This document shows, in pieces, positions 10,093 to 45,424 of a DNA stretch of 64,000 nucleotides (position 1 is the stretch's first letter; each line of letters starts with the position of its first letter). The position numbers and the translations under genes were made by a program. The stretch is from Candidatus Aminicenantes bacterium. GTDB lineage: Bacteria > Acidobacteriota > Aminicenantia > Aminicenantales > JAFGBC01. The stretch spans positions 6,084-70,083 of the forward strand of contig JALHUR010000084.1 in the NCBI GenBank assembly GCA_022867325.1. Reading direction: 5' to 3'. The notes under the pieces were generated by a model that was given only the letters and a program-made list of their open reading frames with translations, was not told the origin of the DNA and made no database searches.

Positions 10093-12844
10093 TGTCTTTT
10101 CCTCTCCCGGGGCTCGGACGTTCGCCGAGACGTTGACCTTTTATACCCGAATCGAGAATCTCTGTCAAACCCTCGACTCCCCGGCCTGAAGGCCGGGGCT
10201 TGGTCAGGGTTGACCCTGAGCCGCCCTTTTCGTCCCCGCCTTGAAAGGAGGGGCTTAGCGTCGGCGAACGGGTCAATTTGGCCGTTTCCCCGCGCGGCGC
10301 GGCGGGGAGCACGGGCAGGAACCGGACTTCCTCACGGGCCATATCGTAGACCTGGTCCTCGAGGTTCAGGAGCTCGAAGACGACATCCTGGGGCCTGGGC
10401 GCTTTGCCGGGGCCTTGCGGGATGATCAGGACGAGGATCCGGGGAGGGCCCGACATTCGAATTTGGAGTCCGGACTCTCCTCCCTTGTCCTCGAGAAAGC
10501 GCCGGATCAGGGCGGAGAGCCTGTCGGCAAAGGAACCGTCCGGGATTTCTTTCCGGGCGCAGGCCGTCCGGACCGCTTCTTCCGCTTCGGGTCGATCAAG
10601 ATTCAGCGAATAGACCATGGAATGGACCGCCCGGGATAAAGGCGGCTCCGAATCGGCTAAAAGCCTAAGCTCAAGAAAACGGACGCCCTCCGGGGCCGAT
10701 GCGTTGAGGCGAACGATCGTCTCTTGGGCGGAGAGGGCGGTCCTGGATTTGAGCTCCAGGCAATCCTTTTTGGCCTCCATCCCCAGGGGAAGCGCGGGGA
10801 GAAACGAGACGATCATTTTGGGATGGAACCCTTCGGACATGGCGACCGAAAGGCCGGCCCTCCGGAATATTCTCTGGAGGACGTTGATGAGATCGAGATG
10901 GGACATGAAACGCGCCCGTCCTCCCTTTGAGTAAAAAAGACGGTAGCGAAGAGGCTGGGCGGAATCGCGGCCGAGACGAGGGAAAGGCTCTTCTCGATCG
11001 CCGGCCTCCCCTTCCTCGGAGGACCTGTCCAGGAAAGCGGGCAAGTCGCAGCCCCGGCAGTCGGCGCAAGTCCTTTCCAGACAGGACGGGGTCCTCTCCT
11101 CCGCCATGGCCCTGTCGAGCTCGCCTTGCAGGAATTCTTTCCTGACGCCGGTGTCGATATGGTCCCAGGGCAATAAGGCGTCGCGGTCCAGGGCGCCGAG
11201 ATAATCTCCTTTCTCGATGCCCGACGACATGAAGGCCTGCTCCCAACAGCGGGCCTGGAAACGGTCCTTCCAGCCGTCAAAACGGGCTCCATTCTCCCAG
11301 GCCGCCCTGAGAAGACGGGAGACCGCCCGATCTCCTCGCGAGAGTACCGCTTCCAGCACGGATTTCTCAACCGGATGGTCCTTGAAATCGATGAAACGGA
11401 ACCTTTTCAAACGATCCTTGAGGAAAGCCTGTTTTTCAAGGAGAGTCTCCGGTCCGTCCATGGCCTGCCATTGGAAGGGCGTATGCGGTTTAGGTATGAA
11501 TGAGGAGACGCTGAGGTTGAAGCGCGGCGGCGAATGGAGGATCGATCGGCCTTCCTCGACGAGGGCCTTGACGAGATCGACGATTGCAACCAGGTCTTCG
11601 TCCCGCTCCGTCGGCAGCCCGATCATGAAATAGAGCTTGAGAAGCCTCCAGCCATGGCGGAAAGCGCTCCGGGCCGCTTCGAAGATGTCGGCATCGTCGA
11701 GGTGCTTGTTAATGACCCGGCGCAACCTCTCGGTCCCGGCCTCGGGGACCAGGGTCAGGCCGGTCTTACGGACCGTGAGGATGCTCCGGACGATTTCGGT
11801 CGAGACGCCCTTGGGCCTCAATGACGACAGGGAGAGTGAAATCTTATCGGGCTCGAGCTCGGCCATGGCTTTCTTGATCAAACCGTCGAGGCCGGGATAG
11901 TCGCTCAGGGAAAGGGCGGTCAGGGACGCGTCTTCGTAGCCTGTCGCCCGCAGGCTTTTTTTCATCGTATTGAGGATGAACGCCCGGCTTTTGACCCGGA
12001 AGGGATGGTAGAGGGTTGTGGCCTGGCAGAACCTGCATTTATGGGGGCAGCCGCGGGCCGCCTCGACCGCGACGCGGTCGAATACGGCTTTAATGTTGGG
12101 GACGACGATGTCCTCCGGGAAATAAGACTCCCGGAACGACCGAACGATTCTTTTCTTTATGCGGGAAGGTTCCCCCGGCCCGGCCTTAACGGCCAGGAGT
12201 CTTGAGCGGTCCGGCCGATAGGTCTCGTAGAGGGACGGGACATAAACGCCGGGAATCCCGGCCAAATCCTTGAGAATCCGGCCCCTGTCTTGGGCGGCCC
12301 CTTTGAGCTCGATCAGCCGTTCGACGATTTCCGGGAATGCCTCCTCGCCGTCGCCGATCAGGAAGAGGTCGAAGAAATCCGCGACGGGCTCGGGATTGAA
12401 GGCGGACGGGCCGCCGGCGATGACGAGAGGATGGTTTCCGGTCCGGTTCGCCGCGAGAAGGGGGATCCGGCCCAAATCGAGCATGGTCAGGATGTTCGTC
12501 GCGTTGAGCTCGTAGAGGAGCGAAAAGCCCACGATGTCGAACCGGCCGAGCGGAGTGGCCGTCTCCAGCGAGAAGAGCGGAAGATCCCGCGCCCGGAGCT
12601 CGGCCTCGCAATCCGGCCAGGGCGCGAAGACGCGTTCGGCCTGGATATGGGGACGGTTGTTGAGGATGGCGTAGAGGATCTTCTGCCCCAGATACGACAT
12701 GCCGATTTCATAAACGTCGGGAAAGGCGAGCGCGACCCTGGCCCTGACGGCGGCCGGATCCTTGCGGCGGGCGTTCCATTCCCCTCCCGTGTAGCGGGCC
12801 GGCTTCTCGACCCGGCGCAGGACCCGGTCCAGGCCGTCAGACAT
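10085..12844 (-). CDS. B12-binding radical SAM protein (TIGR03960 family) fused to DUF2344 (TIGR03936)
   Basis: 919 aa with radical SAM Cys cluster AARGCPHKCRFCQ, followed by a DUF2344-like C-terminal half. The last about 65 codons read through repeat copy A1. 8-nt overlaps with rodA upstream and ACAD downstream. Confidence 0.8.
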   Translation of the reverse strand: MSDGLDRVLRRVEKPARYTGGEWNARRKDPAAVRARVALAFPDVYEIGMSYLGQKILYAILNNRPHIQAERVFAPWPDCEAELRARDLPLFSLETATPLGRFDIVGFSLLYELNATNILTMLDLGRIPLLAANRTGNHPLVIAGGPSAFNPEPVADFFDLFLIGDGEEAFPEIVERLIELKGAAQDRGRILKDLAGIPGVYVPSLYETYRPDRSRLLAVKAGPGEPSRIKKRIVRSFRESYFPEDIVVPNIKAVFDRVAVEAARGCPHKCRFCQATTLYHPFRVKSRAFILNTMKKSLRATGYEDASLTALSLSDYPGLDGLIKKAMAELEPDKISLSLSSLRPKGVSTEIVRSILTVRKTGLTLVPEAGTERLRRVINKHLDDADIFEAARSAFRHGWRLLKLYFMIGLPTERDEDLVAIVDLVKALVEEGRSILHSPPRFNLSVSSFIPKPHTPFQWQAMDGPETLLEKQAFLKDRLKRFRFIDFKDHPVEKSVLEAVLSRGDRAVSRLLRAAWENGARFDGWKDRFQARCWEQAFMSSGIEKGDYLGALDRDALLPWDHIDTGVRKEFLQGELDRAMAEERTPSCLERTCADCRGCDLPAFLDRSSEEGEAGDREEPFPRLGRDSAQPLRYRLFYSKGGRARFMSHLDLINVLQRIFRRAGLSVAMSEGFHPKMIVSFLPALPLGMEAKKDCLELKSRTALSAQETIVRLNASAPEGVRFLELRLLADSEPPLSRAVHSMVYSLNLDRPEAEEAVRTACARKEIPDGSFADRLSALIRRFLEDKGGESGLQIRMSGPPRILVLIIPQGPGKAPRPQDVVFELLNLEDQVYDMAREEVRFLPVLPAAPRGETAKLTRSPTLSPSFQGGDEKGGSGSTLTKPRPSGRGVEGLTEILDSGIKGQRLGERPSPGRGKDND
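10133..10168 (-). promoter_or_regulatory. putative internal promoter TTGACA-17-TATAAA for the acyl-CoA dehydrogenase gene; the -35 lies at the edge of repeat A1
   Basis: Minus strand: ggtTTGACAgagattctcgattcgggTATAAAagg, about 40 nt upstream of ACAD ATG at 10092. Confidence 0.35.
10181..10290 (-). repeat. palindromic mosaic repeat, family A copy 1 (minus orientation)
   Basis: Minus strand reads ttgacccgttcgccgacgcta...ggcggggacgaaaag...gctcagggtcaaccctga...ccccggccttcaggccgggg...gggtttgaca. Homologous to copies at 28880-29109 and 45287-45350. Confidence 0.7.
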
Positions 12845-27794: not shown

Positions 27795-28727
27795 ATGAGA
27801 AAGAAGATCGCTCTCGTCGGCGGCGGCCAGATCGGACAGAACCTGGCCATGCTCGCCGCCCAGAAGGAGCTCGGGGATATCGTCATCCTCGACGTCGAGG
27901 CTTACGTCAACGCGGCCAAGGGAAAGGCCCTCGACCTCATGGAGATGGCACCCCACGGGAACTATGACGCCAACATCTCCGCGACCTCGGACTACAAGGA
28001 CATCGCGGAGGCCGACGTCGTCATCGTCACGGCCGGCAAACCCCGCGAGGCCGGGATGACCCGCGAGGACCTCCTCGCCGTCAACCTGAAAATCATCACC
28101 GATGTCGCCGCCGGCGTCAAGCAGTACGCGCCCAAGGCCTTCTGCATCATCGTCACCAATCCGCTCGACGCCATGGTCTACGCGTTCTACAAGCTGACCG
28201 GCTTCCCCAAGAGCCAGGTCCTTGGCATGGCCGGAACCCTGGACACGGCCCGCTGGCGCGCCTTCATCGCCATGGAGCTCGGCGTGTCCGTCGGCGACGT
28301 CGCCGGCACCGTCCTGGGCGGCCACGGCCCCGACATGGTTCCCCTGCCCCGGCTGACGACCGTCGGCGGCGTCCCGCTGACCGAAATCGCGACCAAGGAG
28401 CAGATCGACAAGCTCGTCCTCAGGACGCGCGAGGCCGGGACCGAAATCGTCAAGCTCTTCGGCAAGGGATCGGCCTTCTTCAGCCCGGCCTGGAGCGCGA
28501 TCGTGATGGCCGAGAGCTACCTCAAGGACAAGCACCGGGTGCTACCCGCCTGCGCCCTGTGCGAGGGCGAGTACGGCGTCAAGGGGCTGTTCATCGGAGT
28601 CCCTTGCCTGATCGGCGCCAAGGGACTGGAGAAAATCTACGAGATCAAGCTCGCCGAGGACGAAAAGGCCCAGCTCGAAAAGACGATCACCTCCGTCAAG
28701 AAGACCGTCGAAGAAACCAAGCTCTGA
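27795..28727 (+). CDS. mdh: malate dehydrogenase (LDH-like MDH)
   Basis: ATG 27795 after AAAGGAGG. MRKKIALVGGGQIGQ... over the full length. Confidence 0.9.
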   Translation: MRKKIALVGGGQIGQNLAMLAAQKELGDIVILDVEAYVNAAKGKALDLMEMAPHGNYDANISATSDYKDIAEADVVIVTAGKPREAGMTREDLLAVNLKIITDVAAGVKQYAPKAFCIIVTNPLDAMVYAFYKLTGFPKSQVLGMAGTLDTARWRAFIAMELGVSVGDVAGTVLGGHGPDMVPLPRLTTVGGVPLTEIATKEQIDKLVLRTREAGTEIVKLFGKGSAFFSPAWSAIVMAESYLKDKHRVLPACALCEGEYGVKGLFIGVPCLIGAKGLEKIYEIKLAEDEKAQLEKTITSVKKTVEETKL

Positions 28728-28792
28728 CGGTCCAGCCCCTGGGCAGAAGGCTGAATCGTCCCCCCCGGGTGGGGCGCTCCAGCCGCTCGGAA

Positions 28793-28827
28793 AGCCGGTG
28801 ATAGGAATCTATCACCGGCTTTTTTTT
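28793..28827 (+). terminator. rho-independent terminator after mdh
   Basis: agccggtgatag-gaat-ctatcaccggct followed by T7-9. Confidence 0.7.
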
Positions 28828-28879
28828 GGGCCGCGACCCCCCCCATACGCTTTTCGCCGACCGTGTCCGGCCCGTCAAA

Positions 28880-29109
28880 GCTCCTCCCGGTTGACGGACC
28901 GGATGCGAATTTGACCCGTTCGCCGACGCTACCCCGCCCTGAAAGGCGGGGACGAGAAGCGACACTTTTGTACTCAGCCCCTTGAGAGGAGATGGGGCTG
29001 AGTGGGCTCAGGGTTAACCCTGAGCAAGCCCCGCCTTGCAGTACTCAAGGAGCCGAAACAACGGCTCCTTGGGTGCCGGCATTCATGCCGGGGCGTCGAT
29101 GGGTTGACA
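28880..29109 (+). repeat. palindromic mosaic repeat, family A copy 2 (longest copy, with an extra internal hairpin module)
   Basis: ...cggttgacggaccggatgcgaatttgacccgttcgccgacgctaccccgccctgaaaggcggggacgagaagcgac[ctcagcccc..ggggctgag]ggctcagggttaaccctgag...ccggcattcatgccggggcgtcgatgggTTGACA. Confidence 0.7.
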
Positions 29110-29132
29110 CCTGCATGCGGCCGGGCGATAAT
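29104..29132 (+). promoter_or_regulatory. sigma-70 promoter TTGACA-17-GATAAT for the MBL-fold gene; the -35 hexamer is the terminal motif of repeat A2
   Basis: gggTTGACAcctgcatgcggccgggcGATAATcg, 40 nt before ATG 29172. Confidence 0.45.
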
Positions 29133-29171
29133 CGACAATAAGAGATGTTCATCTCATCAAGGAGACCGTTC

Positions 29172-30050
29172 ATGAAACGCCTTCCAACCTTCATTTTCGC
29201 CATCAGCATGATCGTGACGGCCGGGCTCATCCCCGCCCTGCAGGCGGGAGGCCAGACGCCCCCGCCCCTCGCGGCTCAAGTCATCAAGCCCGGGCTCTAT
29301 TGGGTCGAGGGCGGAGCCGGCGCCAACACGGGCTTCTGGATCGGCAAGGACGCGGTCGTGGTCATCGACGCCAAGATGACTCCGGACGCGGCGCGCGAAA
29401 TGCTGGCCAAGATCAAGGAGCTGACACCGAATCCGGTCCAGTCTATCGTTTTAACCCACAGCGACGGCGACCATGTCAACGGATTGACCGGCTTTCCCCA
29501 AGGGCTCAAAATCGTGAGCCAGGAGACGTGCAAGACGGAACTCGAAGCGGCTTTCACGGATCCGGCCCTTCGCGCCTATCTGCCCACGGTCACTTTCAAG
29601 GACCGGATGGACCTTCTCCTTCCGGGAGGATCCATCCGGCTTCTCCATTTCGGCTCGGCCCACACCAGCGGAGACGCGATCGTTCTCTTCCCCGCCGAAA
29701 AAGTCGCGTTCATAGGGGATCTCGCCTTCATCGGGAGGGATCCCTTGATTCACAAAAGCAAGGGCGGGACATCGTTCGGATTGACCGCAACCTTGAAGTC
29801 CATCCTGGCGCTCGAGGCCGACACCTTCATCCCCGGTCACGGCAAACCCCTGGCCAAATCCGACATCGAGGGACTTCTCAAGAGCGTCGAGGACAAGCAG
29901 GCTCAAGTCAAGGACATGGTCGCCCGGGGGAAGTCCTTGGATGAGGTCAAGAAAGCGTTCGGCATCGAGGAGGAGACGGCGCAGCCGGGACGCCGGCGTT
30001 GGCCGAGCCTGGTCGAGGTCATTTATCTCGATCTGACGGAGAAAAAATAA
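29172..30050 (+). CDS. secreted MBL-fold metallo-hydrolase
   Basis: AGGAGA RBS. Signal peptide MKRLPTFIFAISMIVTAGLIPALQA. Metallo-beta-lactamase motif LTHSDGDHVNG plus HTSGD and PGHG. Confidence 0.8.
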   Translation: MKRLPTFIFAISMIVTAGLIPALQAGGQTPPPLAAQVIKPGLYWVEGGAGANTGFWIGKDAVVVIDAKMTPDAAREMLAKIKELTPNPVQSIVLTHSDGDHVNGLTGFPQGLKIVSQETCKTELEAAFTDPALRAYLPTVTFKDRMDLLLPGGSIRLLHFGSAHTSGDAIVLFPAEKVAFIGDLAFIGRDPLIHKSKGGTSFGLTATLKSILALEADTFIPGHGKPLAKSDIEGLLKSVEDKQAQVKDMVARGKSLDEVKKAFGIEEETAQPGRRRWPSLVEVIYLDLTEKK

Positions 30051-30082
30051 CGAAGTTCGCCGCGGTCGTCGGGGAGGATCCC

Positions 30083-33034
30083 ATGAAGCGTTCCCGGTGG
30101 GGCCGGGGCTTTTTCGCTCTCGCCGCCGCGATTGTCGCCCTCGCAAGCTGCGGCCGTTCCGGCTGGACGACGATCGAAGACAAAGCCCAGGTTTTCAAGA
30201 CTTACGCTTATTCGGAACCGGACCCGGTGCCGGTCTTCGCCCGGCCGGGCTCGGGCGGCCGGGGCGAACGCCTCTATCCCTATTTCTTCTTCGACGGGTT
30301 CTCAAGGACCGCGATCGAGAAATCCTGGAACGTGGTCAGGCTCGAAAACCCCTATCTCTCGGTTTCGGTCCTTCCCCAGGTCGGCGGCAAGGTCTGGGGA
30401 GCAACCGACAAACGCGACGGCGCCGAATTCCTATACACGAACCATGTCATGAAGTTCAGAGAAATCGCGTTGCGCGGTCCCTGGACCTCGGGCGGGATCG
30501 AATTCAACTTCGGGTTCATCGGCCATACGCCGTCGACGGCCGCCCCGGTCGACTACGCCCTTCGCCGCAACAGAGACGGAAGCGTCTCCTGTGTCGTCGG
30601 GAACCTCGATCTTCCCTCCAGGACGTTCTGGAGCGTCGAAGTCAACCTGCCTCCGGATAAGGCCTTCTTCCGGACGCGAACCCAATGGTTCAACCCGACC
30701 CCCTTCCATCAATCCTATTATAACTGGATGACGGCGGCTTTGCCGACCGCGGGCGATCTGGAGTACATCTCGCCCGGCCGCTTCCAAATCGGCCATGATT
30801 ATTCGGTGCCGCTCGAACCCTGGCCCTTGGACGGGCGTGGTCACGATCTTTCCAAATACCGCGATAACGCCTTCGGGTCCTCCAAGAGCTACTTTACGGT
30901 CGGAGAGTACGAAGACACGAGCGGGGCTTACTACCGGGATGCCGACAAAGGCTTCGGCCACTGGGCCCTCTACGACGATATGCCGGGCCGTAAAATTTGG
31001 ATCTGGGACTTGTCCCGGGCCGGAGCCATCTGGGAAGACCTGCTGACCGATGAAGACGGCCAGTATAGCGAACCCCAGTTCGGCCGGCTGTTCAACCAAT
31101 CCGATCATGAATTCTTGACGCCGTCCCGGACGGATCGCTGGTCCGAGGTCTGGTTCCCTTATTCCAAAATCGGGCCCCTGGTCAAGGCGTCACCCTGGGC
31201 CGTTCTGAACGCGGAGCATCGGGACGGGGCTCTGAAGATCGCCCTTTTCTCCCTTCAAGCCCTCGACGACGACCTGACCGTGACGGCCGGCGGCGCCGAA
31301 ATTTTCCGCGAACGCCTCCGGCTCGAACCCGCCCGCGTCTATCGGAAAACGGTTCGACTCGAGTCCGCCGGCGTTCCGTACGAAATCCGCCTGGCGGCGA
31401 ACAAGCTCGTCTACCGGAGCGACCCCAAGGCCAACGACATCGAGAGGCCTTTACGTTTCCGGCCCGACGACGAGTCCACGACCGAGGGCATTTATCTGGC
31501 CGCGGACAGACTTCACAAGGAGCGCCAATACGGCCTCGCGCTCGAAAAGTATCTCGCCTGCATCGCCCGCGAGCCGCGCCATGTCCGGTCGCTGGTCCGG
31601 ACCGCCGAACTCTTCAGCCGGCGCGGCGAGGACGGGAAAGGCCTCGGCTATGCGCGGACGGCCCTCGAGCATTCCATGTACGACCCGGCGGCGAACTATA
31701 TTTACGGCGTGATATCACGGCGGCTGGAACGGCTCGTCGACGCCAAGGAAGCCCTCGGCTGGGCGGCCCGCTCCCTCGAATTCCGGTCAGGCGCCTACGG
31801 ACTCCTGGCCGAGATCGCCCTCCAGGAAAATGACGCCGACTTAGCGCTGGAATACGCCGGCCGCGCCCTCGAAACTAACGCATTCAACTTCAACGCCTTG
31901 GACGTCCGGGCGACCGCCCTCCGTCTGAACGACGAGCGCGGACCTGCCGTCAACGTTATAAACCGCATCCTGGACGCCGATCCCCTCCACCATCTCGCCC
32001 GCTTTGAAGGGTATCTTCTCAACCCGGGTCCGGCCTCCCTCAAGGCATTCCAGTCGAATATCCGAAACGAATTCCCCCAGGAGACTTATCTGGAATTAGC
32101 GCTCTACTATGTCCGGCTCGGCCTCCACCGAGACGCCGTCCGCCTCCTCAAACTGTCCCCCGAATCGCCGACGGTCTGCGCCAGGCTTGCCTATTTAACG
32201 AAGGCGGATTCGCCGGCCGAGAGCGCCGCCCATCTCAAGAAGGCCTTCCAACTCTCTCCCTGGCTCGTCTTCCCCTTCCGCGAGGAGGACATCCCGGTCT
32301 ACGAATGGGCGATCCGGGAACGGCCGTCGGATTGGAAACCCCAATATTATCTCGGCCTCCTTCTTTGGTCGAAGGGAAGGCTCGACGAAGCCAAGGCGCT
32401 TTTCGAGGGCTGTTCCGGAGTCGATTTCGCGCCGTTCTTCCTGACGCGGTCCGCGCTTTATCTCGACGGCGCGCCCGGTAAGGCGGCGGCAGACCTCAGG
32501 CAAGCGTTGGCGCTGGACCCCAAGACATGGCGAACCTGGCACGCTTTAAGCCGGTTTACCATCGAAACGGGACTCAAGGCCGAGTCTCTCGAAACGACGG
32601 CCAGGGCCATGGAGCTCTTCCCCGATGACGTTTCCATACAGGTGGACCGGGTCAAGGCCCTGCTCGGGAACGGGCTCCCGCGCGACGCCGCGGCCCTCCT
32701 CGACCGGATCGAAGCCCTGCCGTCCGAAGGCGCGAGCGCTCTCCATTCCCTTTTCGTGAGGAGCCATATCTTAATCGCTCTGGATGAAATCCGAAAACGA
32801 GACTACCGGGCCGCTCTCAAGAGCTTGGATCTGGCCAAGACCTATCCCGAACGCCTGGGCAGCGGACAGCCGTTCGATCCCGACTGGAGGCTTCAGGACT
32901 ACCTCCGGGCCGTTTGCTTCGAGAGGCTCAACGATAAGGATCAAGCCGCGGCGATCAGGACAACGATTCGTGATCTGACGGATGCCGAACTCGAAAGCCG
33001 GCTCCGGTCGCTTCGCCGTGCCCATAAGCCGTAA
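30083..33034 (+). CDS. DUF5107-domain lipoprotein with long TPR-repeat C-terminal region
   Basis: Start ATG 30083 (MKRSRWGRGFFALAAAIVALASCG lipobox). About 984 aa with a DUF5107-like N-terminal domain and TPR-like helical repeats. Confidence 0.65.
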   Translation: MKRSRWGRGFFALAAAIVALASCGRSGWTTIEDKAQVFKTYAYSEPDPVPVFARPGSGGRGERLYPYFFFDGFSRTAIEKSWNVVRLENPYLSVSVLPQVGGKVWGATDKRDGAEFLYTNHVMKFREIALRGPWTSGGIEFNFGFIGHTPSTAAPVDYALRRNRDGSVSCVVGNLDLPSRTFWSVEVNLPPDKAFFRTRTQWFNPTPFHQSYYNWMTAALPTAGDLEYISPGRFQIGHDYSVPLEPWPLDGRGHDLSKYRDNAFGSSKSYFTVGEYEDTSGAYYRDADKGFGHWALYDDMPGRKIWIWDLSRAGAIWEDLLTDEDGQYSEPQFGRLFNQSDHEFLTPSRTDRWSEVWFPYSKIGPLVKASPWAVLNAEHRDGALKIALFSLQALDDDLTVTAGGAEIFRERLRLEPARVYRKTVRLESAGVPYEIRLAANKLVYRSDPKANDIERPLRFRPDDESTTEGIYLAADRLHKERQYGLALEKYLACIAREPRHVRSLVRTAELFSRRGEDGKGLGYARTALEHSMYDPAANYIYGVISRRLERLVDAKEALGWAARSLEFRSGAYGLLAEIALQENDADLALEYAGRALETNAFNFNALDVRATALRLNDERGPAVNVINRILDADPLHHLARFEGYLLNPGPASLKAFQSNIRNEFPQETYLELALYYVRLGLHRDAVRLLKLSPESPTVCARLAYLTKADSPAESAAHLKKAFQLSPWLVFPFREEDIPVYEWAIRERPSDWKPQYYLGLLLWSKGRLDEAKALFEGCSGVDFAPFFLTRSALYLDGAPGKAAADLRQALALDPKTWRTWHALSRFTIETGLKAESLETTARAMELFPDDVSIQVDRVKALLGNGLPRDAAALLDRIEALPSEGASALHSLFVRSHILIALDEIRKRDYRAALKSLDLAKTYPERLGSGQPFDPDWRLQDYLRAVCFERLNDKDQAAAIRTTIRDLTDAELESRLRSLRRAHKP

Positions 33035-33038
33035 CACG

Positions 33039-33243
33039 GCTGATGGGTGCGCTCGATCCGTTGACGGACGGCGAATCCCCTCCGCGCCATTCCACGGACG
33101 TCAGTCCGTGGAGGGATAGCGTATCGTCGCTTCGGGGACAGGCAGCGGTTTCGCAGTACTCATGAACCGGAAACGGTTCATGGGTGCGCTCCACCGCCTT
33201 CGACGGGCAGATCCCCGGACGTAAGTTCGTGGAGCTTCAGTCC
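33039..33243 (+). repeat. palindromic mosaic repeat, family B copy 1 (tandem units bounded by ccacggacgtNagtccgtgg hairpins)
   Basis: Begins 5 nt after the DUF5107 stop. Contains atgggtgcgctc modules, gaaccgGAAAcggttc and ccacggacgtcagtccgtggag / ccccggacgtaagttcgtggagcttcagt. Confidence 0.7.
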
Positions 33244-34006
33244 TATCCGCGATCCCAGCGCCGGTAAGGGATGACGCTCAAGTCCTGGGCGCGGGCCAAC
33301 CGGATGATATCGAAGAAGTTTCCGGCTTCGGGGACGAGCTTATAGGTCCGGTAGCGGATGAAGCCGTACTCGGACTGGGGCTCGAGCAGGCACGGGATAA
33401 GAACGGCGCCGGGCTGGGTGGATCGTGGCGCGAGGCGCCCTCCTGGATGAAGGACAGGGTTTGGAAAATCCCCGGGCTGTTGCGGCCGTCGTTGAGGTCC
33501 GTCGTGCTGAAGCGCGTCATCTCCTCCCGTCCGGCCGTATCCTCGGGGCGGAGGGCGGCGCCGGCCGAGGTATTGACGCCCATTTCCTCCGTCACCAGAT
33601 ACTCCTGAAAAGTCACTCCGTCCTTGGCCAGGCTTTTCTCGACCGAGGCCAGAAGCCGATTCCTGGAAAAGTCCTGGAGACGCCGATCGATATTGGCGTT
33701 CGAGACGCAGCCGATCGAGACCCGGTAATAGTCGTCGCCTTTTTCGTGGACGTCGATGGTGACCTCGGGCATCCAGGCCCTGAAAACGGCATGGACGGCC
33801 TTGACCTCCTCGGATTCGATCTTGACGTGGTCCCGGTTGAGGTCGATCCCGTACTCGTTGGCCCGGACGTCGAAATAATTTCCGTAGGGATTGGTTTGGG
33901 GAATGACCAGGACGTTGATCCTATCCAGGAGGCGCCCCCATTCTCCGGCGGCCAGATCCCGGATCAGCCCGAGGGCGGCCTCCTTGGGTGAGAGATTTTT
34001 AATCAT
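33243..34006 (-). pseudogene. M14-family zinc carboxypeptidase gene remnant (N-terminally truncated, frameshifted near 33410)
   Basis: ORF 33278..34006 has M14 motifs (IPQTNPYGNYFDVRANEYGIDLNRDH) but lacks the HxxE zinc site, and its C-terminus degenerates into P/S-rich out-of-frame sequence. The plausible continuation (PGAVLIPCLLEPQSEYGFIRYRTYKLVPEAGNFFDIIRLARAQDLSVIPYRRWDRG) is in another frame and ends at TAG about 33243, directly abutting repeat B1. Confidence 0.5.
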
Positions 34007-34084
34007 CTCCTCATCGTCCTCTAAACAGGGATCGGCTATAATAGCGATCCCATGAACGATTTCATCCCGAAAGGAGTTCGAATC

Positions 34085-35395
34085 ATGAACAGAACGCGCG
34101 TCATCTCCATCTTGACCGTTCTCATCCTAGCAACCATGACATCGGGAGCCGTCCTGGCCCAGGACGCCGAAGACGACCAGGGCCTTGAGGATATCGCCGT
34201 CATCAAGCAGAAAGCGCCCAAGGTTTACATCGACTGTGAGCATTGCGACCTTGATTAGGTCCGGACCGAGATCCCCTACGTCAATTATGTCCGTGACCGC
34301 AAGGAGGCCGACGTCCACATCCTGATCACGACCCAGACGACCGGGAGCGGCGGCACGGAATATACGATGGCCTTCATCGGCCGGGGCGCCTACGAAACGA
34401 TCAACAGCACCCTCGTCTATGCTTCGGGTAAGACGAATACCGAGGATGAAGTTCGCCGCGGCTATGTTCAGGTGCTTAAAATGGGGCTGATGCATTATGC
34501 GTCGCGGACGCCGATCTGCAGCTTAATCGATATCGGCTTCCGTCGCACCGTCAAGCCGACCGACGTCATCGATCCCTGGAAGTTTTGGGTGTTCAGCTTG
34601 GGCCTGGGCGGAGATCTCCGGGGCGAATCGCAGGCCAAAAACAGCATGTTCTACGCCAACTTCTCGGCGAATAAAGTCACGCCGGACATCAAGCTCCGGC
34701 TCGGTCTGACAGGCTGGTTCGAAAACAGCAGCTTCGACTATGACGGCAAAGTCATCGACAGCTCGTCGGAAAGCGGATCAATCAACGCCCTCGTTGTCAA
34801 GAGCCTCTCCGACCACTGGTCGGCCGGCGCCCTGCTGTCCGTCGAGACTTCGACCTACAGCAACCTTAAGTCTAGGATTACGCCCTCGCCCGCCCTTGAA
34901 TACAATCTTTTCCCCTATGCCGAATCGACCCGCCGCCAGCTCCGCTTTCTCTATCGTGTCGGCTACGAGATGACCCGTTACCGGGATATGACCATTTACG
35001 ACAAGATGAAGGAAAATCTCCTGAGCGAGGCCCTCTCGGCCACCATCGAGGTCAACGAACCCTGGGGGACGATCGAGGCGTCCTTGGAGGGGTCCCACTA
35101 TTTCCACGATTTTAAAAAGAACAGGCTCGAGTTTGGGGGCGAGGTGTCCTTCCGTATCTTCAAGGGCCTCAGCCTGGAGATCGACGGCCGCTACGAGCGC
35201 GTTCGCGATCAGCTCGCTCTGGCCAAGGGAAACTTGAGCCTGGACGAGATCCTTCTCCGACGCCGGGAGTTGGCCACCGACTATAACTACTTCGTCTTTC
35301 TGAGCCTTAGCTACACGTTCGGATCCATTTACAGCAACGTCGTCAACCCCCGCTTCGGGGATTGGGGCGTCCCCCATATGGAGGAATATGACTGA
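34085..35395 (+). CDS. DUF4835-like secreted/outer-membrane protein, interrupted by an in-frame TAG at 34256-34258
   Basis: AAAGGAG RBS and signal peptide (MNRTRVISILTVLILATMTSGAVLA). ORFs 34052..34258 and 34367..35395 are in the same frame with a coherent read-through (CEHCDLD*VRTEIPYVNYVRDRKEADVHILITTQTTGSGG). The stop aligns with an aromatic (Tyr) position of the DUF4835 CD..Y..EI motif as recalled from family members. Confidence 0.5.
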
Positions 35396-35457
35396 GAGGA
35401 CGGCGGGGGACGCCCGAAGGCCTCTTCAATGAGAGGGATTTCCCCTATAATAAGGAC

Positions 35458-36138
35458 ATGAGGATTCTTGTTGTCGAGGACGACCGGAAGGTCGGCGCCT
35501 TCCTGCAGAAAGGGCTGCGCGAGGAGCACTACGCGGTCGACTTGGCCCGCGACGGGGAGGCGGCCCTGGAGCTGGCCCAGGTCCATTCCTACGACGTCAT
35601 TCTCCTCGACGTCATGCTCCCGCGCAGGGAAGGTTTCTCCGTCTGCCGCGAGCTGCGCCAGAAAGGAATCCTGACGCCCGTCCTGATGCTGACGGCCAAG
35701 GACACGGTCGAGGACAAGGTCGCCGGCCTGGGCGAGGGCGCCGACGACTATCTGACCAAGCCTTTCTCCTTCGAAGAGCTGCTGGCCCGGATCCGGGCCC
35801 TGCTCCGCCGCAGCCAGGATTACAAGACCAAGGTCCTCAAGGTCGCCGACCTCGAGCTCGACCCGGTCAGCCGCCGGGTGAGCCGGGCCGGCAAACCGGT
35901 CGCGCTGACCGGCCGCGAATACGCCCTGCTCGAGTTTCTCATGCGCAACAAGGGCCGCATCCTGACCGAGTCCCGGATCATCGAGCACGTCTGGGACATG
36001 AATTACGAGGGGACGAGCAACATCGTCAGCGTTTACATCAAATACCTTCGCGGGAAGATCGACAACGCTTCCCCGCTCAAGCTTATCCGGACCGTCCGGG
36101 GCCACGGCTATGTCATCGATGAGAATCGCGAAGACTAA
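35458..36138 (+). CDS. OmpR-family response regulator
   Basis: 226 aa with REC domain (VVEDD...LLDVMLP...LMLTAK) plus a winged-helix trans_reg_C domain. Confidence 0.9.
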   Translation: MRILVVEDDRKVGAFLQKGLREEHYAVDLARDGEAALELAQVHSYDVILLDVMLPRREGFSVCRELRQKGILTPVLMLTAKDTVEDKVAGLGEGADDYLTKPFSFEELLARIRALLRRSQDYKTKVLKVADLELDPVSRRVSRAGKPVALTGREYALLEFLMRNKGRILTESRIIEHVWDMNYEGTSNIVSVYIKYLRGKIDNASPLKLIRTVRGHGYVIDENRED

Positions 36139-37537
36139 GTCTCTGACCTTCCGGCTGACGGTTTGGTACATCGTCATCCTGGGCCTCCTCGTATCCGCGT
36201 CCGGAGCCTTCCTCTATCAAGGATTCCGGACCAGCCTTCTGGACGAGATGGACCGGTCGCTGCGGGAAATCGCCTACCGCGTCAACTCCTTCTGGCAGCG
36301 GACGCGGGGCACCTCCTGGGCGGACGCCATCCGGCGGGCCGAGGAGGAATTCAGGAGACAGGAACCGTTCATCCTGGTCGTCGAGCTCAGCGAGGATGAA
36401 GGGGCCCGGATCGAGAACGTTTACGGCTCCGGACGTTTCGCCAAGGACGCGTTTCTGTTCGAACTCGAGACCTACAAGGGAGCCGAGGACGCGAGCTGGG
36501 ACAAGGCGCCGATATTGAACTGGAACGGGCGGGCTCTCGCGGGATCCCCGTTGCGGGTCGTTTTCCTGCCGGCCCGCGGCGATCATATCATCCAGGTCGG
36601 GCTGTCCCTGGGATACGTATCCGGCGAGCTGCGGCGCTTGACCCTGATCCTGGTCCTGGCCGGACTCCTTCTTCTCCTGTTCGCCTCGTTCGGCGGGAGC
36701 TTTATCATCCGCAAGGCCCTGCGGCCCGTCCGGAGCGTCGTCGAGACGGCCCGACGCATCTCGGCCGACGACCTCGGTCTCCGGATCGACGCCCCCAAGC
36801 GAAAGGACGAGATCGGCGAGCTGGTCGCCACGATCAACGACATGATCGCCCGGCTGGACGGCTCGGTCAACAAGATCCGGAAGTTCTCGGGCGACGTCTC
36901 CCACGAGCTCCGGACCCCGCTGACCATCATCCGGGGCGAGATCGAGGTCGTGCTGCGCAAGGAGCGGCGCGAGAAGGAATACCGGGCGACACTCGACAGC
37001 GTCCTCGAGGAAACCTATCACATGGAGAAGATCATCGAGGACCTTCTCTTCCTGTCCCGGATCGAAGCCGTCCGCAAGACGCGGTTCGACCAGGAAGTCC
37101 CTCTCTCGGACATCCTGGCCCGGGTCCGGGAAAGCCGGGCCCCGGCCGCGAAGACAAAACAGGTCGGGCTTGAGATGGGGGCCTGCCTGGACCTCCTCGT
37201 CTTGGGAGACCGCACCCTGCTCGAGCGGCTCGTCGCCAACCTGGTCGACAACGCCATTCGTTACACGCCCTCGGGAGGCCGCGTCGAGTTGAGCTGCGAG
37301 GACAGGGACGGCCGGGCGGCCCTGGCCGTCCGGGATACCGGAATCGGAATTCCCGAGGAGTCCCTCCCCTTCATTTTCGACCGCTTCTACGTCGTCGATC
37401 CCTCGCGCTCCAAGGAGAGCGGCGGATCGGGGCTGGGCCTGTCCATCGTCAAGTCCGTTGCCGAAATTCATGGCGCCGCGATCCAGGTCGAGTCCCAACT
37501 CGGGGCCGGGACCGTGTTCAGGGTCGTCTTTCCCTAA
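36110..37537 (+). CDS. sensor histidine kinase (HAMP-HisKA-HATPase_c)
   Basis: Two TM segments. H-box DVSHELRTPLT. G-boxes DTGIGIP...GGSGLGLSIV. Overlaps the response-regulator 3' end. Confidence 0.85.
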   Translation: MSSMRIAKTKSLTFRLTVWYIVILGLLVSASGAFLYQGFRTSLLDEMDRSLREIAYRVNSFWQRTRGTSWADAIRRAEEEFRRQEPFILVVELSEDEGARIENVYGSGRFAKDAFLFELETYKGAEDASWDKAPILNWNGRALAGSPLRVVFLPARGDHIIQVGLSLGYVSGELRRLTLILVLAGLLLLLFASFGGSFIIRKALRPVRSVVETARRISADDLGLRIDAPKRKDEIGELVATINDMIARLDGSVNKIRKFSGDVSHELRTPLTIIRGEIEVVLRKERREKEYRATLDSVLEETYHMEKIIEDLLFLSRIEAVRKTRFDQEVPLSDILARVRESRAPAAKTKQVGLEMGACLDLLVLGDRTLLERLVANLVDNAIRYTPSGGRVELSCEDRDGRAALAVRDTGIGIPEESLPFIFDRFYVVDPSRSKESGGSGLGLSIVKSVAEIHGAAIQVESQLGAGTVFRVVFP

Positions 37538-37558
37538 GCCGGAACGGAAGGAATCGCC

Positions 37559-38709: not shown

Positions 38710-38713
<4 letters not shown>
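37559..38713 (+). CDS. MFS transporter
   Basis: 384 aa, 12-TM-like hydropathy with MFS-type motifs. Confidence 0.75.
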
Positions 38714-40806
<2,093 letters not shown>

Positions 40807-40978
40807 GTCGATGCCTCCAAGTCCAACTCGGTAAAAGATTATACATAATACACTAAAACCGCGGCTCTTCTCAAGAACAAAACCGCAAAGTTGACTTCGG
40901 GCCGGAGGATGTGATAAGTGTTGAGCGTACAATGAGTTCGAAAGATGGAGTGAATCGGATCAAGGAGGGAGATCGTCC

Positions 40979-41632: not shown

Positions 41633-41645
41633 CGCTCGATTGTTT

Positions 41646-41808
41646 TAATCCCCTTCGAGGGATTCCACGGACGTTAGTCCATGGAGGAACCCCCTTTCGG
41701 GGGCTGGCAGCGATTTTGCAGTGCCCTTGAACCGGAAACGGTTCGTGTGCGCGCTCCGACGCCTGCAAAGGGTAGATCCCATGGACGTAAGTCCGTGGAG
41801 CTTCAGTA
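41646..41808 (+). repeat. palindromic mosaic repeat, family B copy 2
   Basis: Begins 14 nt after the GWxTD1 stop. attccacggacgttagtccatggag ... gaaccgGAAAcggttc ... gcgcgctccgacgcctgcaaagggtagatcccatggacGTAAgtccgtggagcttcagt. Confidence 0.7.
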
Positions 41809-41914
41809 GATGTTCCAAGATTCATTTAATTGGATAAATACATTTTTTTGTATTTCGTTCCCCCCAACGTTTTCCTAAACTATTGAATATATTTAAATTA
41901 TCTTTCCAATTTTT

Positions 41915-45273: not shown

Positions 45274-45286
45274 GTCGTCTCTTTCA

Positions 45287-45424
45287 CCCGTTCGCCGACG
45301 CTACGCCGCCCTGAAAGGCGGGGACGAGAAGCGAGGCTCAGGGTTAACTTCCGCGCTTCGGGGACAGGCGCTCCAACACCTGCAAAGGGCAGATCCCACG
45401 GACGTAAGTCCGTGGAGCTTCAGT
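45287..45424 (+). repeat. composite repeat: family A copy 3 fused to a short family B copy 3
   Basis: cacccgttcgccgacgctacgccgccctgaaaggcggggacgagaagcgaggctcagggttaac | ttccgcgcttcggggacaggcgctccaacacctgcaaagggcagatcccacggacGTAAgtccgtggagcttcagt. Confidence 0.7.

What the first reader, a model, noticed from the sequence alone, without database searches (positions are those of the whole stretch)
33039..33243. Family B repeats built from GNRA-loop hairpins (ccacggac-GTAA-gtccgtgg, gaaccg-GAAA-cggttc)
Copies at 33039-33243, 41646-41808 and 45350-45424 (the last fused directly to a family A copy) share two modules. One is gcgctccRaCgcctKcRaagggYagatccc-MYggacgtaagtYcgtggagcttcagt. The other is an upstream ttccacggacgtYagtccRtggag hairpin, so each full element is bounded by the same 8-bp-stem hairpin. 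Two copies also contain gaaccgGAAAcggttc. GTAA and GAAA are GNRA tetraloops, a hallmark of structured RNA rather than simple DNA palindromes. All copies start within 5-15 nt of a stop codon. A and B modules recombine in mosaic fashion: a shared ccgttgacggacNg-gcgaat block occurs in both A2 and B1. This looks like an undescribed repeat or small-RNA family. Plausible roles are 3'-UTR stabiliser, RNase target or riboregulator.
Basis: seen in the sequence. Interest (0 to 1): 0.7.

Follow-up and report, generated by a model that had tools for sequence, protein, structure and literature searches.

The report
Small hairpin-ended mobile DNA repeat
The "family B" repeats are real, but they look like gene-less miniature copies of an IS200/IS605-type single-strand DNA transposon scattered through Aminicenantes genomes, not a structured small RNA; this is a new family of a known kind.

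Summary
The three window copies exist; true limits are 33076-33240, 41649-41806 and 45349-45423. The 25-nt 3' core occurs 3 times against 0 expected. The same element is multi-copy in about a dozen Aminicenantes genome bins (39 loci).

It has a 46-nt short form, a ~125-nt long form, and longer forms carrying nested inserts. The gaaccgGAAAcggttc hairpin belongs to one such insert, module E.

Evidence for a mobile DNA element:
- The right end is sharp (...CTTCAG). The left flank is a target-like tTCAA. There is no target duplication and no terminal inverted repeat.
- Empty and filled copies of family A's hairpin loop show precise insertion 3' of TTTCAA.
- The 4 nt before each end hairpin (GATT left, GATC right) pair with TCAA and TCAG by the published IS608 guide/cleavage rule.
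- Related genomes differ in presence, absence and orientation of copies.
- Orientation is random relative to genes but biased to the G-rich strand.

Against an RNA role: no Rfam match, both strands fold equally, no terminator, and the left-end loops are mostly not GNRA.

No matching transposase was found, so the mechanism is inferred (confidence ~0.65). Verdict: new member of a known kind, moderate interest.

The parts
33076..33240 (+). B1: full long-form element carrying a nested E module. Left flank CGAA 33072-33075; guide CATT 33088-33091; left-end hairpin CCACGGAC-GTCA-GTCCGTGG 33092-33111; right-end hairpin about 33213-33232 (1-nt deletion in the 5' arm, one G:T pair); terminal TCAG 33237-33240.
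33144..33187 (+). Module E nested in B1 (AGCGGTTTCGCAGTACTCATG-AACCG-GAAA-CGGTT-CATGGGTGC), inserted between ACAGGC and GCTCC of the B consensus.
   Evidence: (uninterrupted consensus ACAGGCGCTCC)
33055..33075 (+). Separate block ccgttgacggacggcgaa abutting B1's left end. Related to 28881-28905 upstream of family A. Contains CCG-TTGA-CGG, the reverse complement of a TCAA-loop hairpin.
41649..41806 (+). B2: full long-form element with a nested E module. Target-like TTAA 41645-41648; first hairpin TCCCCTTCGAGGGA 41649-41662; guide GATT 41661-41664; left-end hairpin 41665-41684; guide GATC 41775-41778; right-end hairpin 41779-41798; terminal TCAG 41803-41806.
41709..41752 (+). Module E nested in B2 (AGCGATTTTGCAGTGCCCTTGAACCGGAAACGGTTCGTGTGCGC).
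   Evidence: (D6)
45349..45423 (+). B3: 5'-truncated element (consensus positions about 55-130). Guide GATC 45392-45395; right-end hairpin 45396-45415; AGCTTCAG 45416-45423. Joined to a truncated A copy, so this is a deletion junction and not a precise insertion.
45282..45348 (+). Family A copy, truncated at the centre of its GGGTTAAC palindrome. Lies after terminator 45235-45268.
   Evidence: (D17)
28912..29109 (+). Family A composite: core 28912-28962 with hairpin CCCCGCC-CTGAAA-GGCGGGG, palindrome GCTCAGGGTTAACCCTGAGC, nested E-like module 29033-29075, terminal TTGACA 29104-29109. Absent from the orthologous gap in OY969696.1.
10164..10276 (-). Family A copy on the minus strand. Its hairpin loop reads TTTCAA on the - strand (+ strand TTGAAA, 10241-10246). 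This is an empty version of the site that B occupies in five other loci.

Best explanation
Family B is a non-autonomous (gene-less) mobile DNA element built like the two ends of an IS200/IS605-family insertion sequence. It is a PATE- or MITE-like derivative.

**Proposed mechanism (inferred)**
1. When the top strand is single-stranded, for example on the lagging-strand template, its subterminal hairpins (CCACGGAC-GTNA-GTCCGTGG) are bound by a Y1 (HUH) transposase supplied in trans.
2. The 4 nt 5' of each hairpin act as guides. GATT at the left end pairs with the flanking target TCAA. GATC at the right end pairs with the element's own terminal TCAG.
3. The strand is cut 3' of TCAA and 3' of TCAG and excised as a circle.
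4. It is re-inserted 3' of another (T)TCAA without duplication, often in the loop of another hairpin repeat or at a T-TGA-A stop codon.

**Origin of the different forms**
- The 46-nt short form arises by deletion between the two copies of the hairpin.
- The longer forms arise by nested insertion of other small palindromic modules (E, C, D).

**Shown versus inferred**
- Shown: family membership, element limits, the target motif, absence of duplication, one empty/filled site pair, differences between genomes, fit to the guide/cleavage pairing rule, and strand asymmetry.
- Inferred: the enzyme, the single-strand intermediate, and whether the element is still active.
For: **1. Distribution**
- 39 loci carry the exact 24-nt right end. 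Nearly all are Aminicenantes or Aminicenantia bins, with 3-8 per genome.
- No copy lies inside a called gene.

**2. Element limits**
- The right end is invariant (...GGAGCTTCAG, 44/45), followed by variable sequence.
- The left flank decays gradually: t 18/35, t 24/35, T 34/35, C 30/35, then A, A, then the element (TCCCC). That is the look of a target preference.
- There is no variable duplication and no terminal inverted repeat.

**3. Empty versus filled site**
- Family A's hairpin reads CCCCGCC-TTTCAA-GGCGGGG in L001 (twice), and with one stem mismatch (CCCCTCC) in window 10164-10276.
- In L008, L014, L015, L020 and L023 the same hairpin reads ...TTTCAA[TCCCC...CTTCAG]GGCGGGG.
- L002 has a precise head-to-tail junction, CTTCAG|TCCTCTTCGCGGGA.

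**4. IS608 rule** (guide base 1 pairs with cleavage position -3, base 2 with -4, base 4 with -1; GL AAAG/CL TTAC, GR GAAT/CR TCAA; PMC5934647 and PMC3201880)
- B fits at both ends. GATT/TCAA at the left end gives three Watson-Crick pairs in 15 of 23 long forms, and one G:T plus two Watson-Crick pairs in 4 more. GATC/TCAG at the right end fits in 31 of 45, plus 9 with one wobble.
- Independent co-variation: T:A at the left end versus C:G at the right end; the diverged L028 copy has AAAT with TTAA; window B1 has CATT with CGAA.
- Geometry is similar. The target ends 16 nt 5' of the left hairpin (IS608: 19 nt). TCAG ends 8 nt 3' of the right hairpin (IS608: 10 nt). A small second hairpin (GGAAT-AGCGA-ATTCC) follows the left hairpin, as in IS608.

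**5. Differences between related genomes**
- The window is orthologous to OY969696.1 (79-87% identity). Both carry a B in the same gap, but inverted and of different composition.
- L031 and L032 show the same pattern. L022 has a copy where L016 has none.

**6. Strand asymmetry**
- The top strand lies on the locally G-rich strand in 29 loci versus 10.
- After controlling for gene strand, beta = +0.021, t = 4.6, p = 6e-5.
- In the complete chromosome, copies are + at 0.59-2.66 Mb and - at 3.58 Mb.
- G:T pairs on the top strand outnumber A:C pairs 29 to 13.

**7. Stop codons**
- Ten of 45 copies abut an ORF of at least 300 codons that ends at the TGA formed by the element's terminal TCA. The other two frames give 2 and 3.
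- This is as expected for insertion at T-TGA-A, with the right end restoring the stop codon.

**8. Flanks**
- The two flanks tend to pair with each other, placing TCAA in a hairpin loop. Mean stem length is 3.45 versus 2.66 bp, and 13 versus 4.9 stems reach 5 bp or more.

**9. Enzyme family present in the clade**
- Y1 transposases exist here: L012 carries one matching PF01797 at 5e-40, and many homologues are annotated as Aminicenantes.
Against: - **No cognate transposase was found.** None of the 45 copies encloses a gene.
- **The one nearby TnpA is not its partner.** The only TnpA in the 337 kb examined (L012, about 95 nt from a B copy) has different end hairpins (CCCCGYGG-CTTG-CCRCGGGG). Its homologues elsewhere have no B beside them.
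- **The targeted metagenome scan was uninformative.** A scan for a B-type hairpin followed by a Y1 motif gave one hit (L040). It shares only the stem, which is roughly what chance predicts.
- **No RAYT-like ORF** was found.
- **Copy number is modest.**
- **Left-end hairpins carry many uncompensated mismatches**, so many copies may be dead.
- **The GC-skew proxy is indirect.** It uses 8-kb pieces and partly related loci.
- **Right-end invariance is partly built in**, because the search pattern was the right end itself.
- **The five filled A sites may descend from one insertion event.**
Confidence: 0.65

Rival explanations
1. B is a REP/BIME-type system. The hairpins would be domesticated genome-structuring repeats spread and maintained by a single-copy REP-associated tyrosine transposase (RAYT, TnpA-REP), not the remnant of an insertion sequence.
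For: - The elements are short, GC-rich, extragenic palindromes in mosaic clusters with other repeats.
- Family A's inner hairpins occur as an inverted doublet with a linker, like a BIME.
- The chemistry would also be Y1/HUH on single-stranded DNA, so the strand asymmetry fits this reading too.
Against: - There is no GTAG-type 5' tetranucleotide.
- Copies are single and directional, not inverted pairs.
- Copy number is 3-8 exact copies per genome, not hundreds.
- The elements have distinct left and right ends, with a target outside and a cleavage motif inside, as an IS has.
- No RAYT homologue was found in 337 kb, though that is a small sample.
Confidence: 0.12
2. B is a structured RNA element: a 3'-UTR stabiliser, an sRNA or a riboregulator. 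Alternatively it is an omega-RNA-like guide scaffold of the kind that PATEs can encode for TnpB/IscB acting in trans.
For: - The folds are strongly stable (z = -5 to -6).
- 88.8% of stem cells are paired, with some double changes: 7 pairs against 1.9 in shuffles.
- Top-strand G:T pairs outnumber A:C pairs.
- The right-end loop GTAA is a GNRA loop.
- PATEs are reported often to encode omega-RNAs (PMC10055086).
- The three window copies all follow a gene on the same strand.
Against: - Orientation relative to genes is random across 45 copies.
- The bottom strand folds as well as the top.
- There is no Rfam match, even at E < 5.
- There is no terminator or promoter within the copies, and copy 3 lies behind a terminator.
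- Left-end loops are mostly non-GNRA.
- A +1 slide of the pairing partners gives as many double-change pairs as the true structure.
- The 46-nt short form is too small to be a guide scaffold.
- No tnpB or iscB lies next to any copy.
Confidence: 0.1
3. B is moved by a different mechanism that also leaves no duplication and needs a short target. Candidates are rolling-circle IS91/Helitron-like elements, IS110/IS1111-type insertion into palindromes, or spread purely by recombination or gene conversion between repeats.
For: - Insertion is 3' of a short motif without duplication.
- The element starts with TC.
- A hairpin lies 8 nt from the 3' end, and 25 of 45 copies are followed by T. All four features are also typical of rolling-circle elements.
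- Truncated and fused copies such as B3 show that recombination does reshuffle the modules.
Against: - The 3' end is TCAG, not CTRR or an IS91 terminus.
- The same hairpin occurs at both ends with matching guide tetranucleotides, which is specific to the IS200/IS605 scheme.
- Recombination alone does not explain the conserved TCAA flank at unrelated sites.
Confidence: 0.06
4. B is a fixed cis-regulatory or protein-binding DNA site that is conserved by selection and is not mobile.
For: The 24-32 nt right end is identical across bins whose coding DNA is only 69-88% identical. It is also identical in a 41% GC 'Auribacterota' contig.
Against: - That identity was imposed by the search pattern.
- Copies sit in all four gene contexts.
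- Copies differ in presence and orientation at orthologous gaps.
- Copies are nested inside other repeats.
Confidence: 0.04

Closest known systems
IS608 and other IS200/IS605-family insertion sequences (Y1 TnpA, 'peel and paste' single-strand transposition)
   Same: - Subterminal hairpins at both ends.
- No terminal inverted repeats and no target duplication.
- Insertion 3' of a fixed tetra- or pentanucleotide that stays outside the element.
- A related cleavage motif sits inside the right end. B's TCAA is the same tetranucleotide as IS608's right cleavage site.
- The guide tetranucleotide 5' of each hairpin pairs with the cleavage site by the same rule.
- Similar spacing, and a second small hairpin after the left hairpin.
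- Strand-biased orientation (PMC5027513 and PMC6006769 abstracts).
   Different: - B has no tnpA or tnpB gene, and no autonomous partner was found.
- The hairpins are perfect 8-bp stems with 4-nt loops, with no bulged base.
- An extra 5' hairpin (TCCC-CTTCGC-GGGA) lies between the target and the guide.
- The target and the right-end motif differ by one base (TCAA versus TCAG).
PATEs (palindrome-associated transposable elements) and PATE-like minimal IS200/IS605 elements, e.g. in haloarchaea and Geobacillus stearothermophilus
   Same: Gene-less elements made only of IS200/IS605-type ends, thought to be mobilised in trans (PMC10055086; PMC3119063 listed).
   Different: - Described PATEs share their ends with identifiable tnpA- or tnpB-bearing elements in the same genome, and often carry omega-RNAs.
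- For B no such relative is known.
- The short form is only 46 nt.
REP/BIME sequences with RAYT (TnpA-REP), e.g. in E. coli and Pseudomonas
   Same: - Extragenic GC-rich hairpins.
- Mosaic clusters with other motifs.
- Y1/HUH enzymology proposed.
- Possible secondary effects on mRNA stability (established knowledge; PMC3333891 and PMC8266576 abstracts).
   Different: - B has no GTAG-type head and no inverted-pair (REPIN) organisation.
- Copy number is low.
- The left and right ends are distinct.
- No RAYT was found.
Modular pneumococcal BOX elements and the nested small dispersed repeats of cyanobacteria (recalled from memory, not tested here)
   Same: Fixed 5' and 3' modules with variable internal modules, and small repeats nested within one another.
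   Different: - Their sequences are unrelated.
- Their mode of movement is unknown or different.
- No guide/cleavage logic is described for them.

Membership tests
IS200/IS605-type non-autonomous element (PATE-like) | Subterminal hairpins at both ends, and no terminal inverted repeats | tested here: met
   The hairpin CCACGGAC-GTNA-GTCCGTGG occurs near both ends of long forms. The termini TCCCC... and ...CTTCAG are not inverted repeats.
IS200/IS605-type non-autonomous element (PATE-like) | Insertion 3' of a conserved tetra- or pentanucleotide, without target duplication | tested here: met
   The left flank is T 34/35, C 30/35, then A, A, and no variable duplication is present. The family A hairpin loop TTTCAA is found both empty and filled.
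IS200/IS605-type non-autonomous element (PATE-like) | A conserved cleavage motif inside the right end, a few nt 3' of the right hairpin | tested here: met
   TCAG is present in 44/45 copies and ends 8 nt after the hairpin foot.
IS200/IS605-type non-autonomous element (PATE-like) | Guide tetranucleotide 5' of each hairpin pairs with its cleavage site (IS608 rule: g1 with -3, g2 with -4, g4 with -1) | tested here: met
   GATT/TCAA and GATC/TCAG fit the rule. Co-varying cases are L028 (AAAT/TTAA) and window B1 (CATT/CGAA). The rule is taken from PMC5934647 and PMC3201880. Most copies share these bases by descent, so the independent support is 3-4 co-variations.
IS200/IS605-type non-autonomous element (PATE-like) | Orientation biased with respect to replication (top strand on the lagging-strand template) | tested here: inconclusive
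   The top strand lies on the G-rich strand in 29 versus 10 loci. After correcting for gene strand, p = 6e-5. The chromosome positions are compatible with this. No replication origin was mapped and the loci are only 8 kb long.
IS200/IS605-type non-autonomous element (PATE-like) | A Y1 transposase-bearing relative with the same ends | tested here: not met
   None was found among 45 copies, 337 kb of sequence, one targeted metagenome scan or two viral scans.
REP/BIME with RAYT | Conserved GTAG-like head, inverted REP pairs, very high copy number, and a RAYT gene flanked by REPs | tested here: not met
   The head is GATT or GATC. Copies are single and directional. There are 3-8 exact copies per genome. 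phmmer with E. coli RAYT (PDB 4ER8) found nothing.
Classical MITE | Terminal inverted repeats plus a target-site duplication | tested here: not met
   Neither feature is present.
Known RNA family (Rfam 15) | Covariance-model match | tested here: not met
   No hit at gathering scores across the whole window. No hit with E < 5 on any B copy.
Intrinsic terminator | GC-rich hairpin followed by a T run | tested here: not met
   No terminator-like site overlaps B1, B2 or B3. The nearby terminator at 45235-45268 is a separate feature.
GNRA-tetraloop structured RNA | GNRA loops conserved across copies, and orientation tied to transcription | tested here: not met
   Left-end loops are mostly GTTA, GTCA or GTGA. 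Module E loops vary. Orientation is random relative to genes.

The most novel reading that the evidence does not exclude
B is an orphan, cross-phylum PATE whose ends have been tuned for harmless landing, and possibly for RNA function.

- **Harmless landing.** The right end TTCAG mimics the target TTCAA. Insertion at a T-TGA-A stop codon therefore restores the stop and changes the last codon only from NNT to NNC, which is synonymous.
- **Possible RNA function.** The conserved 57-nt 3' core might double as an omega-RNA-like scaffold used in trans by a TnpB/IscB nuclease, or as an mRNA 3'-end protector.
- **Possible enzyme.** A Y1 enzyme not linked to any B copy, possibly a host-retained one, would move it.
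Probability: 0.12. Interest if true: 0.6.

Novelty: new member of a known kind. Interest (0 to 1): 0.4.

Why it matters
**What it adds**
- It gives the uncultivated Aminicenantes (candidate division OP8) a first described family of miniature single-strand transposon derivatives.
- Target, cleavage motif and guide bases can all be read directly from the sequence.
- It shows that the intergenic "mosaics" in these genomes are layers of small palindromic elements inserted into one another's hairpin loops.

**Practical consequences**
- These repeats break assemblies. Several copies sit at contig ends.
- They can be mistaken for small RNAs or CRISPR-like repeats.
- They can supply stop codons to neighbouring genes.

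**If a partner transposase is found**
The simple TCAA/GATT logic would make a compact system for studying, or retargeting, single-strand DNA insertion.

Tried and rejected
- **Rfam.** Gathering scores on the whole window and E < 5 on 28700-45500 found nothing on B.
- **Terminator or promoter role.** No such sites lie within B.
- **Sense-strand 3'-UTR element.** Rejected because orientation is random.
- **TIR/TSD MITE.** Rejected.
- **L012 IS200-type TnpA as B's partner.** The gene lies about 95 nt upstream of a B copy. Rejected as a specific partner because it has its own hairpins and ends, and three homologous elements (L041, L043, L044) have no B nearby.
- **Targeted metagenome scan.** The pattern was a B hairpin, then 95-155 nt, then the YH....PKYR motif. 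The single hit (L040) shares only the 8-bp stem. Its contig ends inside tnpA, and a search with its 41-residue N-terminus found nothing.
- **Other collections.** Viral contigs, plasmids and phages gave no copies.
- **RAYT search** by phmmer gave no hit.
- **Base-level empty sites at orthologous loci.** The intergenic DNA is too diverged, so only presence, absence and orientation could be scored.
- **GC skew of IS200 copies as a positive control.** Uninformative: four data points, confounded by gene strand.
- **Repeat downstream of A in L008, L020 and L023.** No transposase ORF was seen.
Full report

Yes. The 25-nt 3' core occurs three times on the + strand with at most 1 mismatch, against 0.00 expected in shuffles. 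An unbiased repeat search recovers the 57-nt core, the 85-nt block shared by copies 1 and 2, and the four copies of the 8-bp hairpin. Family A is also real, at 28910-28962 (+), 45282-45334 (+) and 10209-10270 (-). The window has about 61% GC. Its region 25.2-33.0 kb is 79-87% identical to Candidatus Aminicenantes chromosome OY969696.1, which identifies the lineage.

**2. The family outside the window**

One scan of representative genomes with the 24-nt right end returned 39 loci. Almost all are Aminicenantes or Aminicenantia bins, with 3-8 per genome. A few bins carry other labels:
- L025 has Aminicenantes-like GC (63%) and is probably mis-binned.
- L028 ("Auribacterota", 41% GC) carries a diverged copy in AT-rich DNA.

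Viral contigs, plasmids and phages hold none. Rfam has no match. A full-text search found no paper linking Aminicenantes with such repeats.

**3. Anatomy**

Aligning 45 copies shows three size classes.
- **Short form, 46 nt:** TCCCCTTCGCGGGATT-CCACGGAC-GTAA-GTCCGTGG-AGCTTCAG.
- **Long form, about 125 nt:** the same 5' hairpin and a first copy of the 8-bp hairpin, then a small hairpin GGAAT-AGCGA-ATTCC, then CCCCGCTTCGGGG, then CAGGCG-CTCCAA-CGCCTG, then the second 8-bp hairpin and AGCTTCAG.
- **Longer forms:** these carry foreign inserts.

Window copies 1 and 2 are long forms. Each has a 44-nt module E (AGCRGYYTYGCAGTACTCATG-stem-loop-CATGRGTGC) between ACAGGC and GCTCC. Module E is where gaaccgGAAAcggttc comes from. 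E also sits in the family A composite at 29033-29075 and forms tandem arrays in L003. Its loops elsewhere are GGAA, AAACAA and AATAAA.

Window copy 3 is a 5'-truncated B joined to an A copy that is itself truncated at the centre of its palindrome. That junction is a deletion, not a precise insertion.

**4. Element limits and target**

The right end is sharp. GGAGCTTCAG is invariant (44/45) and is followed by variable sequence. On the left, conservation fades gradually upstream of TCCCC: A and A, then C 30/35, T 34/35, t 24/35 and t 18/35. That is the pattern of a target preference. No variable duplication and no terminal inverted repeat are present.

The clearest evidence comes from family A.
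- Its inner hairpin reads CCCCGCC-TTTCAA-GGCGGGG in two L001 copies. The window copy at 10164-10276 has the same hairpin with one stem mismatch (CCCCTCC).
- In L008, L014, L015, L020 and L023 the homologous hairpin reads CCCCGCC-TTTCAA-[TCCCC...CTTCAG]-GGCGGGG.

B therefore sits exactly 3' of TTTCAA, with nothing gained or lost. L002 holds a head-to-tail pair with the junction CTTCAG|TCCTCTTCGCGGGA.

More generally, the two flanks of a copy pair with each other more than mismatched flanks do. Mean stem length is 3.45 versus 2.66 bp, and 13 versus 4.9 stems reach 5 bp or more. TCAA therefore often sat in a hairpin loop. Five of those stems are the A sites, which may not be independent.

**5. 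Fit to the IS200/IS605 scheme**

For IS608 the published rule is as follows.
- The element is cut 3' of TTAC, which lies 19 nt 5' of the left hairpin and outside the element.
- It is also cut 3' of TCAA, which lies 10 nt 3' of the right hairpin and inside the element.
- The sites are read by the four bases 5' of each hairpin (AAAG and GAAT). Guide base 1 pairs with position -3, base 2 with -4 and base 4 with -1.
- A second small hairpin follows the left one (PMC3201880; PMC5934647).

B has the same layout.
- Left end: TCAA ends 16 nt 5' of the left hairpin, and the guide is GATT. The pairs are G:C, A:T and T:A.
- Right end: TCAG ends 8 nt 3' of the right hairpin, and the guide is GATC. The pairs are G:C, A:T and C:G.

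The single base that differs between the two guides matches the single base that differs between the two cleavage motifs.

Two diverged copies co-vary further. L028 has guide AAAT with flank TTAA. Window copy 1 has guide CATT with flank CGAA. Four copies with flank TTAA keep GATT, giving one G:T pair.

Most copies share these bases by descent, so I count this as three or four independent agreements, not forty. Even so, a random tetranucleotide would satisfy three pairs at both ends about once in 4,000 trials.

**6. Signs of movement**
- The window and OY969696.1 both hold a B in the same gap between convergent genes. The two copies are in opposite orientation and differ in internal make-up.
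- L031 and L032 show the same pattern.
- L022 has a short form where L016 has none.
- The window's A composite is missing from the orthologous gap in OY969696.1.

The intergenic DNA is too diverged to define empty sites base by base.

**7. DNA or RNA?**

Evidence on orientation and folding:
- No copy lies inside a called gene.
- Orientation relative to neighbours is random. The upstream gene is on the same strand in 16 cases and opposite in 20. The four gene contexts number 8, 12, 8 and 8 (the gene calls come from a crude GC3-based caller).
- Both strands fold equally well.
- No terminator-like or promoter-like site lies inside the window copies, and copy 3 follows a true terminator.

Evidence from the stems:
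- 88.8% of stem cells are paired.
- Double changes are few: 7 pairs and 8 cells against 1.9 pairs in shuffles. A +1 slide of the partners also gives 7 pairs.
- Left-end loops are mostly not GNRA.

Evidence for strand asymmetry at the DNA level:
- The top strand lies on the locally G-rich strand in 29 loci versus 10.
- This holds after correcting for gene strand (beta +0.021, t 4.6, p 6e-5). Coding strands in this clade are C-rich.
- On the complete chromosome, copies are + at 0.59, 0.62, 0.74, 1.03, 2.60 and 2.66 Mb and - at 3.58 Mb. One replichore could hold all the + copies.
- Top-strand G:T pairs outnumber A:C pairs 29 to 13.

This fits the known lagging-strand-template bias of IS608 and ISDra2 (abstracts of PMC5027513 and PMC6006769). 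It remains indirect, because no replication origin was mapped.

**8. Stop codons**

On the bottom strand the right end reads C-TGA. Ten of 45 copies abut an ORF of at least 300 codons that ends at exactly that TGA. The other two frames give 2 and 3. My gene caller found eight such cases.

The target TTCAA reads T-TGA-A on the other strand. An insertion at such a stop codon therefore restores the stop, and it changes the last codon only from NNT to NNC, which is always synonymous. The adaptive reading is inference.

**9. The missing enzyme**

- I built a Y1 profile from IS608, 2EC2, 2F4F and 2XM3. It finds one TnpA in the 337 kb examined: L012 2008-1565 (-), matching PF01797 at 5e-40, about 95 nt upstream of a B copy.
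- That element has its own hairpins (CCCCGYGG-CTTG-CCRCGGGG). Its many Aminicenantes homologues sit at different loci with those hairpins and no B beside them. I treat the adjacency as coincidence.
- A RAYT query found nothing.
- A metagenome scan for a B-type hairpin followed by a Y1 motif gave one contig (L040). It shares only the stem, which is about what chance predicts.
- None of the 45 copies encloses a gene.

The transposase is therefore inferred, not shown.

**10. Comparison and verdict**

B works like, and is built like, the ends of an IS200/IS605 element. It fits best with the gene-less PATE-like derivatives described in haloarchaea and Geobacillus (PMC10055086).

It fails the defining features of these alternatives:
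- REP/RAYT systems: no GTAG head, no inverted pairs, low copy number, no RAYT found.
- Classical MITEs.
- Intrinsic terminators.
- Any Rfam family.

The one unmet membership feature is a transposase-bearing relative, and the search for it was limited. I file B as a new member of a known kind, with confidence about 0.65 in the mechanism and moderate interest (0.4).

The small-RNA reading is not supported, although a secondary RNA effect or an omega-RNA-like role is not excluded.

Noticed in passing
window 28912-29109 (+), 10164-10276 (-); L001 about 4432-4600 and 1336-1450; L014 about 658-900: The family A composite starts tT|GACCCGTTCGCC and ends GTCGAGGGKTTGAC(A/T). Its terminal TTGACA forms the -35 box of the best sigma-70-like site in the region (29104-29132, TTGACA-17-GATAAT, 11/12 matches), just upstream of the metallo-beta-lactamase-fold gene at 29145. 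A similar -35/-10 arrangement follows A copies in L001, L014 and at window 10164 (-). This may be a portable promoter.
   Followed up: partly
L001 4432-4520 and 7301-7390; window 28932-28951: Family A's inner hairpins (CCCCGCC-loop-GGCGGGG) occur as an inverted doublet. The first loop is CTAAAA or CTGAAG, then comes a linker (cttaaaatcggag or ctaaaatcggag), then a second loop TTTCAA. This resembles a BIME-type REP pair. Single-hairpin A copies look like deletions between the two.
   Followed up: partly
L016 4690-4860, L035 3276-3345, L039 about 4520-4590, L019 (-) about 1909-2057: A further repeat, family C (GCCATCAAGAGGC...CTCTTGATGACTGCGGGGGGTT...CCCCCGGCT), is inserted exactly between the 5' arm and the loop of B's left hairpin (GGAC|GTNA). 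L016 has two tandem copies. On the bottom strand this site is 3' of TKAC, an IS608-like target.
   Followed up: partly
L019 2985-3075; L039 about 610-700 and 3767-3927 (-): Family D is a long, perfect inverted-repeat element (AAAAATGGGGACGGTCCTGTTTTTCCC...GGGAAAAACAGGACCGTCCCCATTTT). It replaces the middle of some B copies.
   Followed up: no
window 33144-33187, 41709-41752, 29033-29075; L003 about 6470-6600; L024 3225-3310: Module E is a 44-nt palindromic repeat with a conserved outer stem (ACTCATG...CATGAGT) and a co-varying inner stem with a variable loop. It occurs inside B, inside A and as tandem arrays.
   Followed up: partly
L012 about 2130-1534 (- strand): A complete IS200-type insertion sequence with a 147-aa Y1 transposase (PF01797) and its own end hairpins lies about 65 nt from a B copy. 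Homologues with 70-96% identity are common in Aminicenantes metagenome bins, at different loci.
   Followed up: yes
L008 about 4450-4620 (-), L020 6840-7000, L023 2715-2870, L015 about 7334-7500: Another repeat of about 150 nt or more (ctacggggagcagtaaatatattacataatccttgctgctccccgagtactagccggg...) is inserted at the TTAA centre of family A's palindrome in several places in one genome. In L023 the cluster of repeats starts right after a tRNA gene. No transposase ORF was seen downstream.
   Followed up: partly
L040 1-260 (- strand): A metagenome contig of about 45% GC (estimated by eye, not computed) has a Y1 transposase gene preceded by a hairpin with exactly B's stem (CCACGGAC-TTCA-GTCCGTGG) but otherwise unrelated flanks. 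The contig ends inside the gene. This is probably a chance match.
   Followed up: partly
L028 457-584 (- strand); L011 190-238: B copies also occur in AT-rich DNA from bins labelled Auribacterota (41% GC) and Eubacteriales (a 37% GC contig end). The L028 copy is diverged in the middle, with compensated stems, yet has an identical right end. This hints at horizontal spread, or at chimeric contigs.
   Followed up: no
all loci: In these Aminicenantes sequences the coding strand is C-rich overall (GC skew -0.034). Local GC skew in short pieces therefore mostly reflects gene orientation and must be corrected before it is used as a proxy for replication direction.
   Followed up: yes
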